This document shows, in pieces, positions 2,369 to 13,164 of a stretch of DNA of 64,000 nucleotides. Both the position numbers and the translations under genes were made by a program. Position 1 is the first letter of the stretch. Each line of letters opens with the position of its first letter. This DNA is from Saccostrea echinata (taxonomy: Eukaryota), in the NCBI RefSeq assembly GCF_033153115.1, contig NW_026889758.1, forward strand, positions 13,950,001 to 14,014,000, read 5' to 3'. The notes under the pieces were generated by a model, which saw only the letters and a list, made by a program, of their open reading frames with translations, was not told the origin of the DNA and searched no databases.

Positions 2369-3610
2369 CTATAGAGGGCTTTGAGACAATATTCCACAGT
2401 TGATTTTATACGGACTATTCCTGATCTTACACTTGCAGTAGTTCATGTTTGCTGGTGATAGTTTTCTACTGGCGTTTCCGAATGCTAATGCGCCGCTGTC
2501 CTCCCTATCCAAGTGACTTCGGCTTCTTCCATACTTGCTATCACTTCAACTTAGCTGTCATTGGTGTTTTTAAACAGTCACGGGCAATAGTACATATGTG
2601 AAATAAAAACGTTAAAACAAATATTCATTTTAAATATATATTTTAGCTTTATCAAACAACCAAATCGAAGCCGCACGGGGTGCTATTTTAAAAAAAAAAA
2701 CCATGCTTGCACGTACATGTATATACTAAGCAATTTTTCTCGGGTCTTGGCCCACTCAGGTAATTTGTTAAGATATTTGAATGTTGATTACTAACTTACT
2801 TTTTCAATATCCAATTTCAATATACATGTATACATTAGTTTACAAAGTCATCAAAAGAAACGTCCTTTTTAATAAAAGGGCGTTCTATCATGGTCGATTG
2901 AAGCAGTCTCAAGAAGCACCCAAGCAACCAAAACGCCGGAACTCCTCTTCTACTCAAAGTGACCAGTTGCTTTCCTGCAACGCTCACATAAATAAGTGCA
3001 AAGGAACTGTTCCCCAAATCGCTCAGCAAAATTGAGTTACGAACAGTTACTTGCTTTTAATACTACCTTACCAGTATTTGCAATCTCCTTGCTTGACGCA
3101 GGCGCGCATTTAAATGTGTAACTTTCCCTCCCTTCTTACAACATAGCCATGTAGGTGTGATTAGATTCTTCAGATCTGCTGACAAGATGCATCTGGTCTG
3201 TTGAGGTTTTGAAATACTAGTTCACTTATTCATTAATGTATTGGTTCTATATACCATGTGCATGTACTGCAACTGAGTATTTTGTTTGTCTTTTAACAAT
3301 CAAAATTTTCCAATTGAATGGTCTTTCTTAATTTGTAATACATTTTCATCGCTACACACCTCCTAATTTCATACAATTATACGTAAATTGCAAGTGACAG
3401 GTAGATGACCTTGTCCCAAATTGACCTATTAAAGTGTCTGGGAAGTAGATGATAAAGTGGTATTATATATTTTGTTTAAGTATTAAAATATCTAGAAAAG
3501 CAAGTTTTTCCAACAAAGTCGATTTTATAAAGGAGATATCGCCAAAAAACTGAAAATTTTAAAAATATACACCTTTACGATACCGAAAACGAGGCTATTC
3601 CTAGCTAAAA

Positions 3611-3648
3611 CGGAAGTGACGTCACAACACATCAGTTTGCGCCATTTT
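3611..3648 (+). promoter_or_regulatory. Putative transposase promoter core (ETS + CRE + YY1-like motifs)
   Basis: cggaag-tgacgtca-caacacatcagttt-gcgccatttt, 45-80 bp upstream of ATG 3691; mirrored at the other end of the element. Confidence 0.55.
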
Positions 3649-3690
3649 TAGAAAGTCTTCTATTGACCTGTGCGTGTTTTCCGGCGAATA

Positions 3691-6600
3691 ATGGCCAGCA
3701 AAAGTGTCGGACGCATGTGTGTTGTAGCGGGATGCAGCAAAAGACAGTCAGATGGCGTGTCGGTTCATGTTTTCCCCAAAGATGAGCGACTGCGAGCGGC
3801 CTGGTGTCGTTTTGTGAAGCTGACGAGGGCAGACTGGTCTGGTCCTTCGAAATACACCGTTATCTGCAGTGACCATTTCAACGAGGATTGCTATGAGGTA
3901 CATTTCTCGCTCATGAAGGACTTTGGGATCCCAGCGAAGAAGCGTCTACGCCAGGGGTCCATACCAAGCATATATCCCAAGCGGAAAAGAGACCAACTGA
4001 ACGATGCGTTCCTGGAGTCTCCCCATGTAAACGGTAACGAGACGTTTCGCCCCTATTGACGTTTCGCGCCGAGACCATTCGCCCCAAAAGACCTTTCGCG
4101 CCGAATTTAATCTACATTATCTATAACGATATATTACGATGTTTTAAGATAAATATTTTTATATAACTTTATAAGGTAAATCACTTTCATGTTTAAATTG
4201 TTGAAAATAGGCTTATACCATAATTAAAGGTATACTTATCCATGTGCAGATATAATTATGTTTATTCAGCAATCATAATTGTCTGATTTAGTTTTGTAAT
4301 TAAGGTGTTATAATTTGGAGACTCTCCATGTCAAGATGAAGAGGAGAATGAAATTATGAGACAGGTGTCAAGTTCATTTTACCGTTGCTCAATAGGATGC
4401 ACACTGACTCCAATTTTCTTTGCGATTTTGAGCAATGCTATATAAGTACTTATCAAAAATATTCTTCTCAAAAAATCTTTTGATATTACTAAGTTCACAA
4501 GTGACATACCATAATATATTTCTATGTCTGTCAAAATAGATGTTTTTTTTAAATCATCATGTCATTAAAATAATCACGAGTTGCTGTTTTCTCACATCAT
4601 CTATTAATATTTCCCCCATACTGGCCAAATTATCTCAATCAGGTCTTCAGAGTGTCACGTCTAAGTTAGTATATATCCCATATAAATTGGTTTTATTGAT
4701 TGAACCAATGGATTGAATTAATATAACACAGTACAAAAGTATTAAATAATTGCTGTTAACAAGTGATAATTACCGCATAATTAATTAATTAATCTTCGGC
4801 GCGAACGGTCTAGGGGCGAAACGTCTCAGCGCGAATGGTCTTTCGGGGCGAACCGTCCCGCACTCATGTAAACACCCCTACTCCAGTACGAGGAGCCCAT
4901 GCAAAGCGTGAGAGGAATAGGGTTAGTTTTTTTTTGTTCTATTCTATTTTGTTTTAATCTATAAATGGTGGTGATTCGATAATAAAAAAATATTAACTTC
5001 AGAAATTTGTAGACTTTTGGTGAGAAAATTCGGAATAAGAAAAAAGACCTCATCTGCACTAAAAATGCTTTCATGTTCTTTGTTTGTTAAACAGAAAGTA
5101 AATTACACTGGGTATTCACTGAAATATCTTAAACTTATTCAAATTTATATTATTTGTTTGTGTTAAAATTTGTTCATTATTTTATCGCAGGTATTGGCAG
5201 AGCTGCTTCATGACAACACAGAGGTTGAAGAAATACAGGAAGAGTCACAAGACCAGGATGAATGTGTTGGGATCCAAACAACGCCTGTTCCCTTTCCCAC
5301 ACCTGTTTCGGTATGATATAACATATTTAAGAACCAAAAAAAAAAATAGAGAGAAATGTGTAAATTGTTACATTCCTTGCACCTTAGCTTTATATAATTA
5401 TGTTTACACAATATATGTAGTACTAAACCAACTGAAAAGAAAGAATGATTTTATTAAATTTTCTCTTCTTATTCCACATGCTGATGCATCTTTTATTTAT
5501 CTTTTTTTAGGCCATTATTTAAAAAAAAAAATCATAGATTCTCATCTAATTCTGTCTCAATTTCTTTTCTGTTCAATTCGTCATCTTGATTCCGATTGGG
5601 ATCGGTATTCAACTTGCTATTCAACTTTCGGTTCTAAGTCCCATGAGGACCATGAATGTAAGAATGATTTTTACAACTGATAAGTTGGTTATTACTGTAT
5701 TGCGTATTAAACAAGGATAGATTGGTGAGGATCCGATGTGTAGTAAGAGATACATGTATGTTTATTTAAATTGACATCTCCTATGACTTTTGTTTGGGCA
5801 TAATTAAGATAACTCTGCACAGATTGATTAGGTCAACAAAAATATACGAAATAAAAAATGTAGTATAAATTTGTCAGCTTGCCTCGTTTAAGAAAAAGTT
5901 CAATGATTATTTTGTTAAATATAAATGATGTTATCATGCATCTTGTGCATTATTCACAATATCATGAAGATTTATTCAGTTCAGATATAAGATTAAAAGA
6001 GATGGTTATTACATTCTTCATCGCTGTGTTCTTCTGAATTTAAATTACTTGACCCTAAATAAATAATAACCAAATCTAAATTTCCTGCTTAACATGTCCA
6101 CAATACTAGACTCTATGCAAATAAGTCCATATGTGTATGAGTAAACTATTATGAAACAAGCATTCTGAGAGTATTGCATTAGCAATACTAGTCCCCTACC
6201 GGCAAGTGTAATCTGGTTCTGTTCCCGTTAAGAATTGAAAATGCTATAATTCCGTCAAAAATTAATGAAGCGGGACGAAATGCAAACTTGATCTATAACT
6301 AATCAAGGTAAAGCCACATACCAAAAATCAGCTCAATATCTACAAGCGTTTAGAAGAAAATTGCGGAAAACCCCTAAAAATTGAAAAGGCCGTAATTCCG
6401 TCAAAAATCAATGAAGCGGAACGAAATGCAAACTTGATCTGTAACTCATCAAGATACACTCACATACCAAAAATCAGCTCAATATCTGCAAGCGTTTAGG
6501 AAAAAAGTGCGGAAAACCAAGTGGGACAGACTGACAGACAGACAGAGGGACAGACAGACAGACAGACGGACAGACAGACAGACGGACGGACAGACGGACG

Positions 6601-9600
6601 GACAGACTCAGAGGAAACCTATAGTCCCCTCCGGTTTCACCGGTAGGGGACTAATAAAACAGAAACTTGCACTTGTTCTAAATTTAGTGAAAGGAAGAAA
6701 AAATTGTACTATTCATACGAGTATTATTAAAGAAAAGAGATAAAAATATTGCTGTAAAGTATGCAGGCCACAATTATACTTCTACGGATTACTTATTAAT
6801 CTTTTTTCTGTTCATTTTAGGAGGAGAAAAGTGTGTCTATGGCATGTCAGACAGAATCAACACGAAAACGTAGCGTAAAGATTCAAGTTGCTGCAAGGAA
6901 TAAGGAAAAAGGTACTTATTCGAAGTAACTTGTTGCAACATAAGATAATAATATGTTGTAATTGTCATTCTTTATTCTTTGATTATTACTGCAATATACC
7001 TGGTACTCTCAATCTGATTCCCCATGGCTAGTTTGGCTTTTTTTTAAAAAACATTTATTATATTAGAACATGTACATTTATGGACTATGACCCCTAAGCT
7101 GGTATTGAAAGACATACATTCAGGGATTATTACATATTTACTCATTGATGATTATTATAACTGAATTATATTATGTAGTATCGTTTATATACCCCCTTTC
7201 ACCATTTCTTTTTCAATTTTGAAAAGAGAGGAAAACATTTAACTTATCAGTACCTAATTTGTGTGTAGTATTCAATTTTAAAAAATTGCAAGTTCATATG
7301 CATAAGACTAATTAGATCATTGTTCTTCCTCCTAAATATAAATTTTAAGAGAAAAATCTTGTTTTCTCACAATGACATATAATGTTTATATGTAATTTGT
7401 TAGGATTACAAGTTGACCTACAACCCAGAGTTCGAAGCATTGGTATTCAGGTTGATGTACGAGATGATTTGCCTGCTCCACGTCCACCTCCAGCACCTGT
7501 TCCTGTTCCTGATTCCTCTAGTGGTGAAGAGTCTATCCAGACGGAGAATGAGACTGCCTCATTGTATGAACCTTCTGGCACTAGTTCAGATGATTCTCAT
7601 GTACAGGATATCAAGTAAGTGATTAGGCTATGGTCATTGATCAGTTACCTAAGAATTGCTTCAAAAAGTTTACTATGAAGAGAAAATGAATATGTTAGCC
7701 TCAATTCTTTTGGCAATTTTTATTTCCCTGGAATTAATTTAATCTTTTAAAAATTGTAGCACTGAAGCACCCTGCAACCCCTTGGAAGACAGGAAGTTTA
7801 TCATCTCCGAAACCAAGCTGCTTGAGCTGTTCAGTAACTGCAGGAGGTGCCACAAGTATACAGCAGCAAGTGTACAGCAGGTGCTTGGAACAATGGTGAA
7901 GATTGCTGTGGAGTGTGAGTTCTGTGGGTTTACCTGGCAGTGGAGCAGTCAGCCATTCATTGGGAATATTCCTGTTGGGAACATTGGGTTATCTGCCGCC
8001 ATACTGTTTTCTGGTGCCCTTGTGTCCAAAGTTCTTCGTGTGCTGAACTGCATGGGGGTTGCAACCATTACCAGAAGAACATTCAATTCCCACCAGTCAG
8101 CCATTTTGTTTCCTGTAATTGCTCGTGTGTGGGACAAGCACCAGCAGGAGTATGCAAGTCGAGCTTTGGAAAGAGGAGATCCTCTGGTTATTGGTGGAGA
8201 TGGGCGAGCTGACTCCCCTGGTCACTGTGCAAAGTTTGGCTCGTACAGCACCATTGACCTTGAGGAAGGAATTGTCATTGATATCCAGCTGGTTCAGGTA
8301 AACAAGTTATTTCGATAAATATCTGCACTTTTTATTTAAATTAAAGATGAACTGTTTTAAAAAAAAAAAAATTATTTTATCATTATTTTAAATAAAACTA
8401 TCACTCAAACACTGCTGAAAAGATTCAACAAAGTATACATGAAAATAAAATGCTAAAAAGGATCTAATGAGGGGAAAAAATGTGTACTAACTTTAGGTGT
8501 TTGGTTGAAGTTTTGTGAAGTTAATGAAATCTGATTAAATTTTGTAGAGCAATGAAGTAAAAAACAGCTTGGGAATGGAGAAGAAGGGATTAGAGCGGAC
8601 TATTGCCTGGATGAAAGACCAAGATTTGGAGATTGGTACGATAGTGACTGACCGCCATGTCCAGATACAAAAGTGGATCAGGGAGAACTTGACGGAGACG
8701 ACACACTATTATGATGTTTGGCATGTGGCAAAAGGTATTCTTTTTCTTTTCTTTCTTTACCAGTATTTGAATTGTATGTATTTAAAGACATCTTTGTACA
8801 GAATCAACATTAGCTGATGTTTAACTTTTATAATGACTTCTACTGAGTTATCTCCAAAGTTATTATTAACATGTATGATTTAAAAAGTTATGAATGTAAA
8901 AGATGAAATGAAGCAGTTAAATTATGATTTTTATATGCCCATCTTAAGATGGGACATATTAATTTTACTCTGTAAACATGGCTTCCAAAATATTTTCAGG
9001 TCTAAAGAAAAAGATCCTAGCTGCATCCAAACAGAAGGAGTGTGAGAATCTTGCCAAATGGATCAAGAGCTTGACCAACCACTTGTACTGGGTGGCAGCT
9101 TCAACACCTGATGGGAATGGGGACTTCATGTGGGCAAAGTGGGAGTCTGTGGAAAACCATATCCACAATATTCATGAGGGCCACAATGACCTCTTCCCAT
9201 CTTGTGCCCATGACACGTTAGAGGGTGATGAGCAGAAAAAGAAGTGGATAAAACCAGGTAAAACCTTATTTTAGAATTGATAAATAATTATTACTTTCTT
9301 TATTGGCAAATTTCATAACTGCCTTGTTAAAGGGAAAAATCCTGTACAATAAGTATACATTTTGTTTTCATAAAGGAACGAAAGCCAGTGAGAAGATTTG
9401 CGATATTATCCTGTCCAATCAGATGAAGAAAGATATACCCAAGCTGTCCCCACTGCACCAAACATCCCAGATTGAGGCTTTCCATAGCACTATCAATCAC
9501 TTTGCCCCCAAGATGGTTTCCTTCTCTTATCATGGCATGTACTGCAGGTATGCTTACACAGTAATATTGGATATTTTTTTATATCATTTCTTATTTAAAT

Positions 9601-10245
9601 TTCTACAATACAGAAAGCAGATGGAGATTTTATTTATTGTAATCTACAAGGTTAAAAATTTTATGTAGGTTGATGGTTGCTGCTCTCCATTTTAATGAGA
9701 ACTCTTCAAGAATGCAGGCAGTTACAAAGGAGGGAAACCTGCAGTACAAGATCAGCTTTCCCAAGTTCAAGCATGGCGAATATAGTGTTCGCATGAAGAC
9801 TGTAGATTCAACGTTTGGTAAGATGCTTTTATTAACGCACCTTTAAAAAAAAAAAAATTGTAAAAGTCCCTCCTCGTTTAAAAATTGAACAACCAAAAAA
9901 AAAAAAATGTATATATAAATAACAAAATATGTTGAATTTAATTTTATTCAATACCAAGCAAAACACGAGAATGATACTTGTATTTATCAACAGAGATAGA
10001 GTCCTCAATATTTTACAAATTTTAAATATTGTCTATGCATTTCAGGGTATGCATCTGATTTGATGACAGAGACTCTACGATATGTTGAGGTATCATCCCG
10101 GACACCAGCACCCGCCTTTCCACCTGTGCTCTGTTTGCCTCAGTTGCAACCACCTCCTCTGTGCAGTGATTTTCTTCACCCTGAAAAGGAGGAAGCAGTG
10201 TTTAATTTCCAGTCTCGGTTTGGGAGGAAGGAGACATCTGTGTAG
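3691..10245 (+). CDS. Kolobok transposase (THAP zinc finger + DDE), 10 exons, ~771 aa once the exon-1 insertion is removed
   Basis: Exons: 3691-4032+4874-4921, 5191-5310, 6821-6911, 7404-7614, 7760-8297, 8548-8734, 9000-9257, 9376-9547, 9669-9817, 10046-10245; all GT-AG with matching phases. THAP: CVVAGC..FP...W....ICSDHF...SIPSI. CxxC..CxxC finger; GDGRADSPGHCAK, VTDRH, DVWHVAK, TSQIEAFHS, AALHFNEN. The insertion causes a stop at 4057-4059. Confidence 0.88.
4033..4864. mobile_element. Non-autonomous DNA transposon (Mutator-like by TSD length) inserted in transposase exon 1
   Basis: Perfect 9-bp TSD catgtaaac (4024-4032, 4865-4873). Each end has four ~17-bp repeats (gacgtttcgcccc / gaccattcgcgcc-like) in inverted orientation. 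Removing it restores the frame ESPHVN-TPTPVRGAHAKRERNR. Confidence 0.88.
6154..6656 (-). mobile_element. Pearl/CvA-like non-autonomous Helentron-type element in transposase intron 2
   Basis: Subterminal inverted repeat tagtcccctaccgg / ccggtaggggacta, two ~128-bp core repeats, (GACA/GACG)n microsatellite 6525-6607 and a terminal hairpin. Confidence 0.8.
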
Positions 10246-10742
10246 GAGATTCTAGCCCTTGTATACATAGAACTGTAAATATCAGTTGTGGATACTCATG
10301 CTGTAGTTTGTCATAGTCTGTTTGTAAATAATTGTATAAATAGTGTTATAGTTAGCATTTACTTGTAAATTTGCATGTAGGAAAACAAAAATAAAATTGC
10401 AAAAAAAAAAAAAAAAAAATGGGAACAAAAAAAGCAGGGTCCACGTCCCGTTCCTGGGTGCAAAAAAAATTACCTATGTAATCAAGATTTTTTTTGTAGC
10501 TGATGCTTTTATAAATTTTATTGTAATATGTACATGAGGCTTATGTTTTGTCAATTATTTTGAACTGCTTTTTGCTTGTATGTGTGACTAGGCAAGGTTG
10601 TTTTCTGTATCCTATGCTTAACCATTTCTCATTTATAAGATTTATGCTGTGTAAACTTTATATTTATTTAATTTGTAAAATTGATAGTAAAAGTTGATAA
10701 TATGGTGAATTTTTGTTAATCCAAAATATAGAAGTGGCTTAC

Positions 10743-12388
10743 TCATTCAGGGTCTCTGAATCCTTGATACTCTTCAGAACTGAAGGAGTGGTGTATCTTT
10801 GTAACTGCACAAGAGGGAAGTGGGACACGAACACTCTTCCCCAAGTAGCCCCAACACCAACGAACAAGCTGACGATATGCTGTATATCTGTTTCTTCTTA
10901 ATTGAATAAAAGAAAATCATGTTATCATGCACTTGTTATTACTTGTGATAGTCTTTGTGATTTTCTTCAAATGCTTTATTTCATTTTTGGAACAAATATG
11001 TAAAAATTCAATAAAATGTCTTACTGTTCAATGGTCTTTTGCAATTCCCCATACTGGGAACGATACTGATAATAGGCTGTCTCCAAGACGTAGATGTCGA
11101 GACAAACAGATTGGAATCCAGGGTGTTCTGTAATGCAAGGCAATTCTTTCTGATAAGATGTTCTCTTTTCATCAATCCTGGTGATTTCAGTGCAGCATAT
11201 ACTTTCTCTGAGTGTGGGTTTCGGAGTACAGAATCCACAAGTGCACCTACAATATTCAAACATGATTACATGGAAGTTATATTAGACACATCTTCGCAAG
11301 CCAAGGGTTTTCGGTCCACTTTTCTCCCCGCGAAGCAGACCGAAAACCCTTGGCTTACGAAGATGCATTAGACATAATGATTATTTATCAACTTTAATCT
11401 TTAAAAAAAAAATACTCCAGAAGTCCCATACATGTAGATAATGTGCATAGAGCAATACAGTTTTTGTTTTCAACTTATCATCAGGTATAAAGCATGGCCG
11501 TAGGAAGGGGGGGGTTGTCCCCCTCAAATAATTTTGCCGATATCTAGATTACTATAGAAAACATAGCTACTATATGCTTGTTGCTTGTGCCCCCTCAATG
11601 AAAACGTCTGATGACCTTTTTTTTTGCTTGTCAAGGAATTTTGGTAGTTGATAGTGCCCCCCCCCCAACTGAAAATGTTCAGCTGTGCCCCCCCCCCAAC
11701 TGAAATTGCTTCCTACGGGCCTGTAAAGGGGCAAAATTTTATTCTCAGAGTTAGAGGTTCTGACAAATTTAGTTGTCATCTTAATTTTCTGCCATCGCAG
11801 AAAAAAAAAACATGTCCAAACTCCATGACTATAGAGACCAGAAAAGTTGACAAGCTACAAAAAAGTAGTAAACTCTTTGGGCGTGTATATACCACTTTTC
11901 AAGATCAGATTAATTATTTCCTTCTCATTGAGACAATTTTCAAGAATAGATCTAAATCTGCTAGCCCATAAGATTCAAATGGTCGTCCCGAACGAATATT
12001 CAGCCATGTTGCATGGGTGTAATTTACATGGCCTCATTTCTCGCAACATTTGGCTTATATAGTAATATTTTTATTAATTATTATTAGTTCAGACCATGCG
12101 AAATTCTATGAGTATAAAATATATATTTTTCTTTGTATTATACCAGAGAGTTTTAACGTGAAAGTCATACCAGTCCGTATTGCCGAGCCGCTGTGGGTTG
12201 TCGACATCGTCCTCACTTGAGCCATCAGATTCACTAGAATCACTCGCCTCAGGTTCAAATCGATAAGGGGCTACATTCTGGAAATGTTCTTCTTGTGTTT
12301 CTTCGAAGGATGAGGCCTCAAACGACATATGTAGGTCGATATCGGACGCAGAATCGGAGGCTTCGCTGTTGTTGTTTGTACTCGCCAT
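10743..12388 (-). CDS. Kolobok accessory protein (KolX-type; P2X7 ballast/nanor-like Cys-rich domain), 3 exons, ~197 aa
   Basis: Exons 12388-12171, 11246-11025, 10896-10743 (GT-AG, phase 2/2). Acidic N-terminus with PYRFEP, then RLGNTDWCTCGFC...ESICCTEI...CITEHPGFQSVCL..YVLETAY...RYTAYRQLVRWCWGYLGKSVRVPLPSCAV..I...F....YQGF. Confidence 0.88.
11289..11365. mobile_element. 77-bp hairpin MITE in accessory-gene intron 1
   Basis: 28-bp inverted arms catcttcgcaagccaagggttttcggtc / gaccgaaaacccttggcttacgaagatg (1 mismatch), flanked by the direct repeat tattagaca / cattagaca. Confidence 0.8.
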
Positions 12389-12451
12389 TTTGAACTTGAT
12401 GTGATGTGACGTCATGCGGGGTTTTTCGCTATTTATGGTAAAACCGGAAGT
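12383..12451 (-). promoter_or_regulatory. Putative accessory-gene promoter core (ETS, CRE, YY1-like site overlapping the ATG)
   Basis: Minus strand reads acttccgg ... tgacgtcacatcacatcaagttc-aaaATGgcg. Confidence 0.55.
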
Positions 12452-13164
12452 AGCGTTGATTGGTTTTAGACAGGTGCGAGAACCGCCTACTTTAACCCGG
12501 AATATCTCCGTTATCGTTGCGAATCTGACTGTAAAACTTACGGAATGTTTTTATTATACAATTCTACGTATTTTAAAACTAGCATTGTTACATACTTCCC
12601 AGACACTTTAAGCCCTGTTCATTTAATGTTAGGGTAGATTTTCTCTGATCCATATAATTTATTCGTATAAAATGTACAGTTTACATTTCTATATTATCTT
12701 CATTCCCTAACAAAACCGTTCTTGTCTTTGTCAGTTTCATATTTGGGGTCAGAAATAAGTCCTTCCTAAATCGGAAAAATTCACCTATATACATACATTT
12801 GTGTATGTGAATGTATATGTGTACAGTGTATATGTATGAATATATTATATTCGTATAATTATGCATGTATGTTTAATTGGAATGTATTTACATAATGGAT
12901 ATACCGTTCATAGTAATTTTATGAATACTCACTTGTTTACCCCGTTTATTGTCATCTACTGCTCAGTTTTCTTCATTTAATTAAGTGTATAGCAGTTTGG
13001 TGTTCCTTGTATGCGATGCTTATCTTCCATTTTATGAATCATACTGGTAGTTTAATGATATTAGTTGAGAATGTTTGCAAGTGAGGATCTGGGCAATATT
13101 TCACCTAATCAATCATTATTTGTTACAATCATGATTTTATATTATTGTTTTATTGTTTTCTAGG

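What the first reader, a model, noticed from the sequence alone, without database searches (positions are those of the whole stretch)
3433..12607. Complete two-gene Kolobok transposon carrying an intact P2X7-ballast-like partner of unknown function
Seen: perfect TIRs and TTAA TSD; a spliced THAP-DDE transposase with candidate catalytic D (GDGR), D (TDRH) and E (IEAFH) intact; and a convergent, uninterrupted 197-aa Cys-rich gene. Established: Kolobok elements make TTAA TSDs and can carry an accessory gene, and the vertebrate P2X7 cytoplasmic ballast binds two Zn ions and GDP/GTP. Inference: the partner may be a Zn- or guanine-nucleotide-binding regulator of transposition, and such elements are a plausible source of the domain captured by P2X7 and nanor. 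These ORFs are easily mislabelled as host 'P2X7-like' genes; no P2X channel part is present here.
Basis: partly seen in the sequence, partly recalled or inferred. Interest (0 to 1): 0.7.

Follow-up and report, generated by a model that had tools for sequence, protein, structure and literature searches.

The report
Young oyster Kolobok transposon with KolX
This is one of nine nearly identical, recently spread copies of a known type of oyster jumping gene; its small second gene has the published likeness to the zinc-binding tail of the P2X7 receptor and likely works as a binding partner of the transposase, but in this copy the transposase gene is interrupted by another mobile element.

Summary
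Real element, published kind. It has 15-bp perfect TIRs, a TTAA duplication, a 10-exon THAP-DDE transposase and a convergent 197-aa gene. This is a Kol0-lineage Kolobok with KolX. Kojima & Bao 2022 already report KolX as the P2X7 ballast fold and the source of P2X7's tail and Nanor; this scan also noted such elements on other DNA.

Correction: this copy's transposase is not intact. An 833-bp MITE sits in exon 1, and the spliced transcripts lack it.

What I add:
- Nine near-identical copies; 2 of 9 have both frames uninterrupted.
- Both genes are spliced in RNA-type contigs; KolX's 3' UTR overlaps the transposase antisense.
- All seven zinc cysteines are kept, but only 1 of 5 P2X7 GDP contacts, which weakens the GDP-sensor idea.
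- 51 of 71 KolX hits lie tail-to-tail with a Kolobok transposase, none in another orientation.
- A co-fold with the transposase gives weak support (0.52 against 0.00 best control).
- Unexplained: three unrelated elements inserted within the same 14 bp of exon 1 in 3 of 9 copies.

Most likely, KolX is a zinc-stabilised transposase partner; this is untested.

The parts
3429..3432 (.). left TTAA target-site duplication
   Evidence: flanks differ among sister copies
3433..3447 (+). left TIR, 15 bp
3433..4032 (+). CpG-rich left end (CpG o/e 1.08), likely the transposase promoter; holds an ETS/CRE-like motif (label recalled)
   Evidence: promoter role inferred
3691..4921 (+). transposase exon 1 (THAP domain aa 10-94), interrupted by the MITE
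4019..4032 (.). 14-bp site hit by three unrelated elements in 3 of 9 copies
4033..4865 (+). 833-bp MITE with imperfect TIRs and an 8-bp duplication (4025-4032, 4866-4873); member of an abundant family
5191..5310 (+). transposase exon 2
6160..6652 (.). high-copy insertion of about 490 bp in intron 2 (146-bp tandem unit and ACAG microsatellite; Helentron/HINE-like by recall), private to this copy
6821..6911 (+). transposase exon 3
7404..7614 (+). transposase exon 4 (disordered linker)
7760..8297 (+). transposase exon 5: C2C2 cysteines and first catalytic D418 (8199-8201)
8548..8734 (+). transposase exon 6: D485 (8650-8652) and the DxxH signature
9000..9257 (+). transposase exon 7: H566, H571, C581, H583 (H2CH zinc finger)
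9376..9547 (+). transposase exon 8: E632 (9474-9476)
9669..9817 (+). transposase exon 9
10046..10245 (+). transposase exon 10 to the stop codon (771 aa without the insertion)
10151..10180 (-). start of KolX non-coding exon 4, antisense to transposase exon 10; at least 30 nt, 3' end not mapped (candidate poly(A) signals near 9943 and 9828)
   Evidence: joint 10179-10742 with CT..AC ends in 3 of 4 runs; acceptor
10181..10742 (-). KolX 3'-UTR intron, starting right after the stop codon
10743..10896 (-). KolX exon 3 (R..AYR, LPSC with C176, YxGF)
11025..11246 (-). KolX exon 2 (C74, C76, C79, C90, C91, C110)
11493..11723 (.). 231-bp TIR insertion with a 5-bp duplication in KolX intron 1; shared by all nine copies, absent from older relatives L014 and L015
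12171..12388 (-). KolX exon 1: acidic, low-confidence N-terminus with a conserved PYxFEP motif; an in-frame ATG 27 nt upstream gives 206 aa
12593..12607 (-). right TIR, 15 bp
12608..12611 (.). right TTAA target-site duplication

Best explanation
This is a young copy of a two-gene cut-and-paste Kolobok (Kol0) transposon of an oyster, whose KolX protein is predicted to have the two-zinc P2X7-ballast fold and likely serves transposition by binding the transposase as a helper subunit, probably without the GDP-binding role it has in P2X7. Shown: the ends, nine dispersed near-identical copies, the exon structure, spliced transcripts of both genes from the family, purifying selection on KolX, a fixed tail-to-tail arrangement, and the MITE in this copy's transposase exon 1. 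Established for the family: TTAA targeting and a THAP/DDE/H2CH transposase. Inferred: THAP binds the ends and D418/D485/E632 cut and paste into TTAA; KolX, made from its own promoter at the right end, docks on the catalytic part; this copy now likely gives KolX but no THAP-bearing transposase, and could be moved only in trans by a sister copy. Identity about 0.97; helper-subunit mechanism about 0.45.
For: Ends and duplication. Copies: nine at 99-100% over the left 602 bp, eight with the right end, all flanks different; 5-59 substitutions per 4.2 kb between copies. Splicing of all 9 transposase introns and 3 KolX introns in contigs of 2 samples from 2 studies; the RNA status of the runs is the tool's guess. 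Fold: AlphaFold2 mean pLDDT 81.8; the top 14 Foldseek hits are all P2X7; VIA-align Z 11.1, rmsd 3.6 over 121 residues to 6u9v, the only one of 48,161 chains with Z >= 5; profile E 3.6e-21 to 6u9v. Seven cysteines are 96-100% conserved in 112 homologues. Transposase model is closest to ISCth4, P-element and Hermes transposases. Linkage: 51 of 71 KolX hits lie within 30 kb of a transposase hit, all convergent, against about 0.5% by chance; 4 more of the 20 unpaired ones have other transposase exons nearby. Selection: KolX dN 0.18-0.36 against dS 2.7-3.3 for the two distant families where dS could be computed, and dN/dS 0.41 against 0.39 for the transposase versus L015. Co-fold of transposase 270-771 with KolX 40-206: 0.52, best of 3 controls 0.00, runs agree in at least 60% of contacts, partner pLDDT 70-74, verdict weak support. 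The mark was reached by 51 of 78 solved and 2 of 108 mismatched pairs, but at 0.60 or under by only 5 of 78 solved and by all 4 passing mismatches of 180; in eukaryotes by 39 of 65 solved pairs without a like complex and 2 of 126 unrelated pairs; by 7 of 44 blind neighbours. Precedent: the Harbinger Myb-like protein binds its transposase (PMC9179366 passage).
Against: The co-fold pass lies in the band that the tool calls more often wrong than right unless the guess was likely beforehand; no interface was given, and predicted chains are untested in its calibration. Linkage and selection show that KolX matters to the element, not how. Several Kolobok lineages encode only a transposase or other accessory proteins (PMC9587614 section 10), so KolX is not a universal need. 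29 of 80 transposase loci have no KolX hit within 30 kb, though many may be decayed or missed. GDP binding is not excluded: R150 is kept, and R578's equivalent is R in 95 of 106 homologues and in 21 of 22 other loci of this genome. No empty site was found, so excision is not shown.
Confidence: 0.55

Rival explanations
1. KolX is a GDP/GTP sensor that gates transposition by nucleotide state.
For: Same fold as the GDP-binding ballast. R546's equivalent is R in 107 of 111 aligned homologues and R578's in 95 of 106. PMC7016195 suggests that invertebrate ballast-like domains may bind GDP.
Against: Only 1 of 5 rat contacts is kept here. R574's equivalent is V in 87 homologues, and this recently mobile family has His at the R578 position in all nine copies.
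Confidence: 0.15
2. KolX acts on chromatin or host factors (anti-silencing or target access), like accessory proteins of some Mutator elements (recalled), through its acidic tail and PYxFEP motif, and does not touch the transposase.
For: The PYxFEP motif is 61-89% conserved inside a low-confidence acidic region; KolX has its own CpG-rich promoter-like end and is under selection.
Against: No DNA- or chromatin-binding fold stands out among the structural hits; the weak co-fold points to the transposase.
Confidence: 0.2
3. The second gene limits the element: the KolX protein inhibits the transposase, or its antisense 3' UTR makes double-stranded RNA with the transposase's last exon.
For: A KolX splice joint lands inside transposase exon 10, antisense, in 3 of 4 runs; the arrangement is always tail-to-tail (51 of 51 pairs).
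Against: Selection acts on the protein, so RNA alone cannot explain it. The overlap is mapped for only 30 nt, and contigs show no strand or level.
Confidence: 0.1
4. The partner is a host P2X7-like gene that happens to lie inside a transposon.
For: Database names call some relatives 'P2X purinoceptor 7-like'.
Against: It is inside the TIRs of nine dispersed copies (one cut at its 5' end) and paired with transposases in at least 51 loci; no channel domain.
Confidence: 0.01

Closest known systems
Kol0 (Kolobok0) lineage of Kolobok DNA transposons, type family Kolobok-1_XT, with KolX (Kojima & Bao 2022, PMC9587614; passages, section 10 and supplement searches seen)
   Same: TTAA duplication, RR..YY termini, DDD/E transposase plus KolX; KolX aligns to P2X7 476-595 with 7 cysteines.
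   Different: No difference of kind. I could not name the nearest Repbase family: motif searches in the supplements found nothing, and Figure S6 gave no readable text. The passages seen give no function, binding partner, GDP-site analysis or antisense overlap for KolX.
Xenopus Kolobok transposases (PMC6004289; passages seen)
   Same: THAP, DDE and H2CH motifs.
   Different: Those are described as single long reading frames, many domesticated; this gene has 10 exons and is in a dispersed young family.
P2X7 cytoplasmic ballast (6u9v; Pfam PF20478) and Nanor/ZCD proteins (PMC7016195; passages seen)
   Same: Fold (Z 11.1), seven zinc cysteines, R546, AY, LPxC and YxGF motifs.
   Different: Free-standing, no channel, acidic N-terminal tail, extra conserved H114 and C121; H547, R574, R578 and K583 are not kept.
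PIF/Harbinger transposase plus Myb-like partner (PMC9179366; passages seen)
   Same: Works-like model only: a two-gene element with a small partner kept with the transposase.
   Different: Unrelated proteins. There the partner supplies DNA binding; here the transposase has its own THAP domain, so KolX would do something else.

Membership tests
Kolobok superfamily | TTAA 4-bp target-site duplication | tested here: met
   Seen at both ends in 7 of 9 copies and at one end in the other two
Kolobok superfamily | Termini 5'-RR..YY-3' with short TIRs | tested here: met
   AG..CT, 15 bp; definition
Kolobok superfamily | THAP + DDE with DxxH signature + H2CH zinc finger | tested here: met
   definition
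Kolobok superfamily | Dispersed copies with different flanks | tested here: met
   nine copies
Kolobok superfamily | Excision (empty site) or activity | tested here: inconclusive
   The left flank has only 1 close match in the assembly, this locus itself; no DNA reads were laid
Kol0 lineage | Second gene KolX with ballast similarity and 7 cysteines | tested here: met
Kol0 lineage | Transposase groups with Kol0 families in a tree | not tested
   Reference sequences were not brought into a tree; placement rests on KolX
KolobokP / D / E / H | Long terminal direct repeats or a nuclease/helicase accessory gene | tested here: not met
   No long direct repeats at the ends; the only accessory gene matches P2RX7_C
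P2X7 ballast | Two-zinc, seven-cysteine cluster | tested here: met
   C74, C76, C79, C90, C91, C110, C176 match rat C477, C479, C482, C498, C499, C506, C572 by motif and position (the HMMER alignment itself shifts the CC pair). Zinc binding not measured
P2X7 ballast | GDP contacts R546, H547, R574, R578, K583 | tested here: not met
   1 of 5 kept
P2X7 ballast | Actual GDP/GTP binding | not testable with these tools
   Needs a binding assay
P2X receptor | Two transmembrane helices and an ATP-binding ectodomain | tested here: not met
   The 197-aa protein matches only the C-terminal stretch of P2X7

The most novel reading that the evidence does not exclude
KolX is a required subunit of a two-protein Kolobok transpososome: the ballast fold arose as a zinc-stabilised transposase-binding module, and its GDP site in P2X7 is a later addition. 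This young oyster family, with both genes expressed and uninterrupted copies present, would then give the first direct assay of what a free ballast does and point to a protein-docking role for the P2X7 tail.
Probability: 0.3. Interest if true: 0.65.

Novelty: new member of a known kind. Interest (0 to 1): 0.33.

Why it matters
The element type and the KolX-ballast link are in print, so the headline is not new. The function of KolX is not given in the passages I read, and it bears on the origin of the P2X7 tail. This family is a convenient test system: very young, spliced, with natural copies broken in one gene or the other. It offers two testable leads, a weak predicted KolX-transposase contact and the loss of most GDP contacts in a recently mobile family. 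The triple insertion at one 14-bp site is a small, unexplained case of element-in-element targeting.

Tried and rejected
1. Empty site: a search with the left flank found only this locus and one 74% fragment (2 of 2 matches); no excision evidence.
2. Cryptic splicing of the MITE: in frame on paper but not among the 15 joints shown (12 not shown). Whether other individuals carry insertions at the same site stays open.
3. Sequence preference as the cause of the 14-bp cluster: weight matrices from 14 and 23 distinct target sites rank it only in the top 27% and 47% of positions. Rejected.
4. Same hot spot in other Kolobok families: 46 loci compared; the insertions seen fell elsewhere, such as inside THAP (L117), ahead of it (L126) and in the core (L085), but they were not mapped exhaustively.
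5. One shared origin for the three insertions: no similarity among them at E 1e-4, and their ends and duplications differ (8, 9, 8 bp). Rejected.
6. Naming the 34.7-kb insert: six open frames gave no Pfam match above cut-off.
7. phmmer of KolX exon 2 alone against PDB found 0; P0001 gave only E 0.039; the profile was needed.
8. Nearest Repbase family: not found in the supplements.
9. McCarthy 2019 is not held; GDP residues come through PMC7016195.
10. Paper searches: Kolobok+P2X7 2 papers, Kolobok+KolX 1, Kolobok+THAP+transposase 5, P2X7+cytoplasmic ballast+GDP+transposon 0, nanor/ballast/Kolobok 2 relevant among 15 listed of 80, nested-insertion terms 6 listed of 7 and none relevant. None of those I read reports a KolX function or partner; subscription papers and Repbase reports were not searched.
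Full report
VERDICT. The feature is real and is a member of a published kind: a Kol0-lineage Kolobok DNA transposon with its KolX gene. Database proteins identical or nearly identical to its products are named as Saccostrea echinata, an oyster. The link to the P2X7 ballast is already in print. This copy is not fully intact.

ENDS AND COPIES. The TIRs are 15 bp and perfect, at 3433-3447 and 12593-12607, with TTAA on both sides. The left 602 bp matches nine places in the 923-Mb assembly at 99-100% (9 of 21 matches). Eight of them have the right end; the ninth (C58) is cut inside KolX exon 1. TTAA is seen at both ends in 7 of 9 copies and at one end in the other two, and all flanks differ. Over a shared 4.2-kb segment the copies differ by 5 to 59 substitutions; the window copy differs from the C20 copy by 5. 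The family is therefore very young. No empty site was found.

TRANSPOSASE. Joints in contigs from four runs (2 samples, 2 studies; RNA status is the tool's guess, but the joints are GT-AG) support all nine introns. Without the insertion the ten exons give 771 aa, equal to database protein P0133 but for one residue. It has THAP at 10-94 (E 1.8e-16), D418, D485, E632, a DxxH signature and H566/H571/C581/H583, all at least 99% conserved in 70 homologues. These are the Kolobok motifs named in PMC6004289 and PMC9587614 (passages). The model (pLDDT 79.6) is closest to ISCth4, then P-element and Hermes transposases.

THE WINDOW COPY IS INTERRUPTED. Bases 4033-4865 are an 833-bp MITE with an 8-bp duplication. 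Its family is abundant (1003 candidates, 40 scored), and 15 of 29 other copies examined show an 8-bp duplication. Read through, the frame stops after 122 aa. All four runs show the exact 841-nt skip, the form that six sister copies have in DNA. The annotated protein that I infer belongs to this locus is 595 aa and lacks THAP (P0138). Across the nine copies, two (C20, and C33a with in-frame deletions) have both frames uninterrupted; the others have a stop, frameshift, truncation or insertion in one gene or the other (the C50 transposase row carries a mapping artefact and I rely for it).

PARTNER GENE. Three coding exons give 197 aa; the database form P0125 adds 9 residues from an upstream ATG. 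Pfam finds only P2RX7_C. A 112-sequence profile hits four PDB sequences, all P2X7 (best E 3.6e-21). The model has pLDDT 81.8 overall and about 90 or more over most of residues 80-190. Foldseek's top 14 hits are P2X7; VIA-align gives Z 11.1 (rmsd 3.6, 121 residues) with the next hit at 3.3. The seven cysteines that match the ballast's zinc ligands are 96-100% conserved; H114, C121 and an N-terminal PYxFEP motif are also conserved. The family is large: 2,606 representatives at E <= 0.001.

GDP SITE. PMC7016195 lists R546, H547, R574, R578 and K583 as the rat contacts and notes that only the two arginines R546 and R578 persist in invertebrates. Here they map to R150, Y151, V178, H182 and S187. 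Position 182 is R in 95 of 106 homologues and in 21 of 22 other loci of this genome (L088 and L117 are one locus, one spurious row dropped), yet His in all nine copies of this family. A recently mobile family with one of five contacts argues against P2X7-like GDP binding being needed, without excluding weaker binding.

KOLX BELONGS TO THE ELEMENT. Of 71 KolX hits (72 rows, one second piece dropped), 51 lie within 30 kb of one of 80 transposase loci (108 rows merged by hand), all tail-to-tail and none in another orientation; chance is about 0.5% per hit. Four of the 20 unpaired hits have other transposase exons nearby. KolX is under purifying selection between families: dN 0.18-0.36 against dS 2.7-3.3 where dS was computable, saturated in five of eight comparisons, and dN/dS 0.41 against the transposase's 0.39 for the closest relative.

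OVERLAP. KolX has a fourth, non-coding exon: an intron starts right after the stop and ends at 10181, so the 3' UTR lies antisense on the transposase's last coding exon for at least 30 nt (3 of 4 runs). Contigs cannot show its end or level.

CO-FOLD. Transposase 270-771 with KolX 40-206 scored 0.52, 0.51 and 0.52; the best of three controls was 0.00; runs agree in at least 60% of contacts; partner pLDDT 70-74. The tool calls this weak support. The mark was reached by 51 of 78 solved and 2 of 108 mismatched pairs, but at 0.60 or under by only 5 of 78 solved and by all 4 passing mismatches of 180. In eukaryotes it was reached by 39 of 65 solved pairs without a like complex and 2 of 126 unrelated ones, and by 7 of 44 blind neighbours. 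I know of no solved like complex (none appeared). It raises my odds for direct binding modestly.

MECHANISM. Most likely (about 0.45) KolX is a zinc-stabilised helper that binds the transposase, in the manner of the Harbinger Myb-like partner (PMC9179366 passage), though here DNA binding is already supplied by THAP. Rivals: chromatin or host-factor adaptor (0.2), GDP/GTP sensor (0.15), self-limiter by protein or antisense RNA (0.1). All functional steps are inferred.

AN UNEXPLAINED CLUSTER. Three of nine copies carry different insertions whose duplications overlap within 4019-4032: the window MITE (8 bp), a 590-bp MITE in C86 (9 bp; 24 of 29 other copies show 9 bp) and a 34,657-bp TIR element in C50 (8 bp). 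They share no sequence. With 5 to 7 insertion events over 7.6 kb, three this close has probability 2e-5 to 4e-4 under uniform placement; this is a post-hoc figure. Target-sequence matrices do not favour the site. It lies at the edge of the CpG-rich left end, so open chromatin may explain the region but hardly the 14 bp. I saw no such site in other families (not exhaustive).

WHAT IS KNOWN. Kojima & Bao 2022 (PMC9587614; passages, section 10, supplement searches) state that Kol0 elements encode KolX, that KolX resembles P2X7 476-595 with 7 cysteines, that P2X7 arose by fusion with KolX and that Nanor is a likely domesticated KolX. Rump 2020 (PMC7016195; passages) had found the domain in oyster without the transposon link. 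Figure S6 of the 2022 paper gave no text and may bear on the residue comparison. This scan holds 21 earlier notes on Kolobok/KolX in at least 7 genomes and one in this genome; none with all my co-fold words. I use them as leads only.

SCORE. New member of a known kind; interest 0.33. The value lies in a young, expressed, testable family, a weak binding lead, evidence against the GDP reading, and the insertion cluster.

Noticed in passing
G000:C50:634785-669441 (L008, L017-L019, L009): A 34,657-bp element with about 50-bp TIRs, an 8-bp duplication, subterminal tandem repeats and a frame with a P-loop-like motif, inserted in the C50 copy. Relatives of about 35, 44 and 13 kb lie on C34, C33 and C22, with short derivatives elsewhere. 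Six frames gave no Pfam match above cut-off; superfamily not identified.
   Followed up: partly
window 4019-4032; L005:1100-1689; L008:1103: Three unrelated elements inserted within 14 bp in 3 of 9 copies; cause unknown.
   Followed up: partly
L080-L084 (C5, C36): Another repeat family (five loci, 85-97% alike over 0.5-2.3 kb) carries a 220-260-bp fragment of this Kolobok's exon 1 and first donor, 74-84% identical, including the site above.
   Followed up: partly
L010, L011 (C25): Two near-identical loci hold only the first 118 bp of the element followed by unrelated sequence; probably a duplicated fragment.
   Followed up: no
window 11289-11365: A 33-bp-arm hairpin (91% complementary, 11-nt loop) in KolX intron 1, missing from the older relative L015.
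   Followed up: no
window 3429, run X1: A spliced transposase contig starts in a flank not found in any locus fetched by then; it may be an insertion absent from this assembly.
   Followed up: partly
L003:2862-3933: About 1.07-kb TIR insertion with a TA duplication (Tc1/mariner-like by recall) in a transposase intron of the C5 copy.
   Followed up: no
P0130 (C86 copy): The database model splices the inside of the 590-bp MITE out in frame and keeps its ends as coding sequence; not checked against RNA.
   Followed up: no
window 13282-14041: Open frames just outside the element that look like a reverse-transcriptase fragment of a Penelope/LINE-type element (recalled motif).
   Followed up: no
P0150, P0169, P0186, P0194, P0197, P0295: Some KolX relatives are 330-1066 aa long with the domain at or near the C-terminus, i.e. 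fused forms.
   Followed up: no
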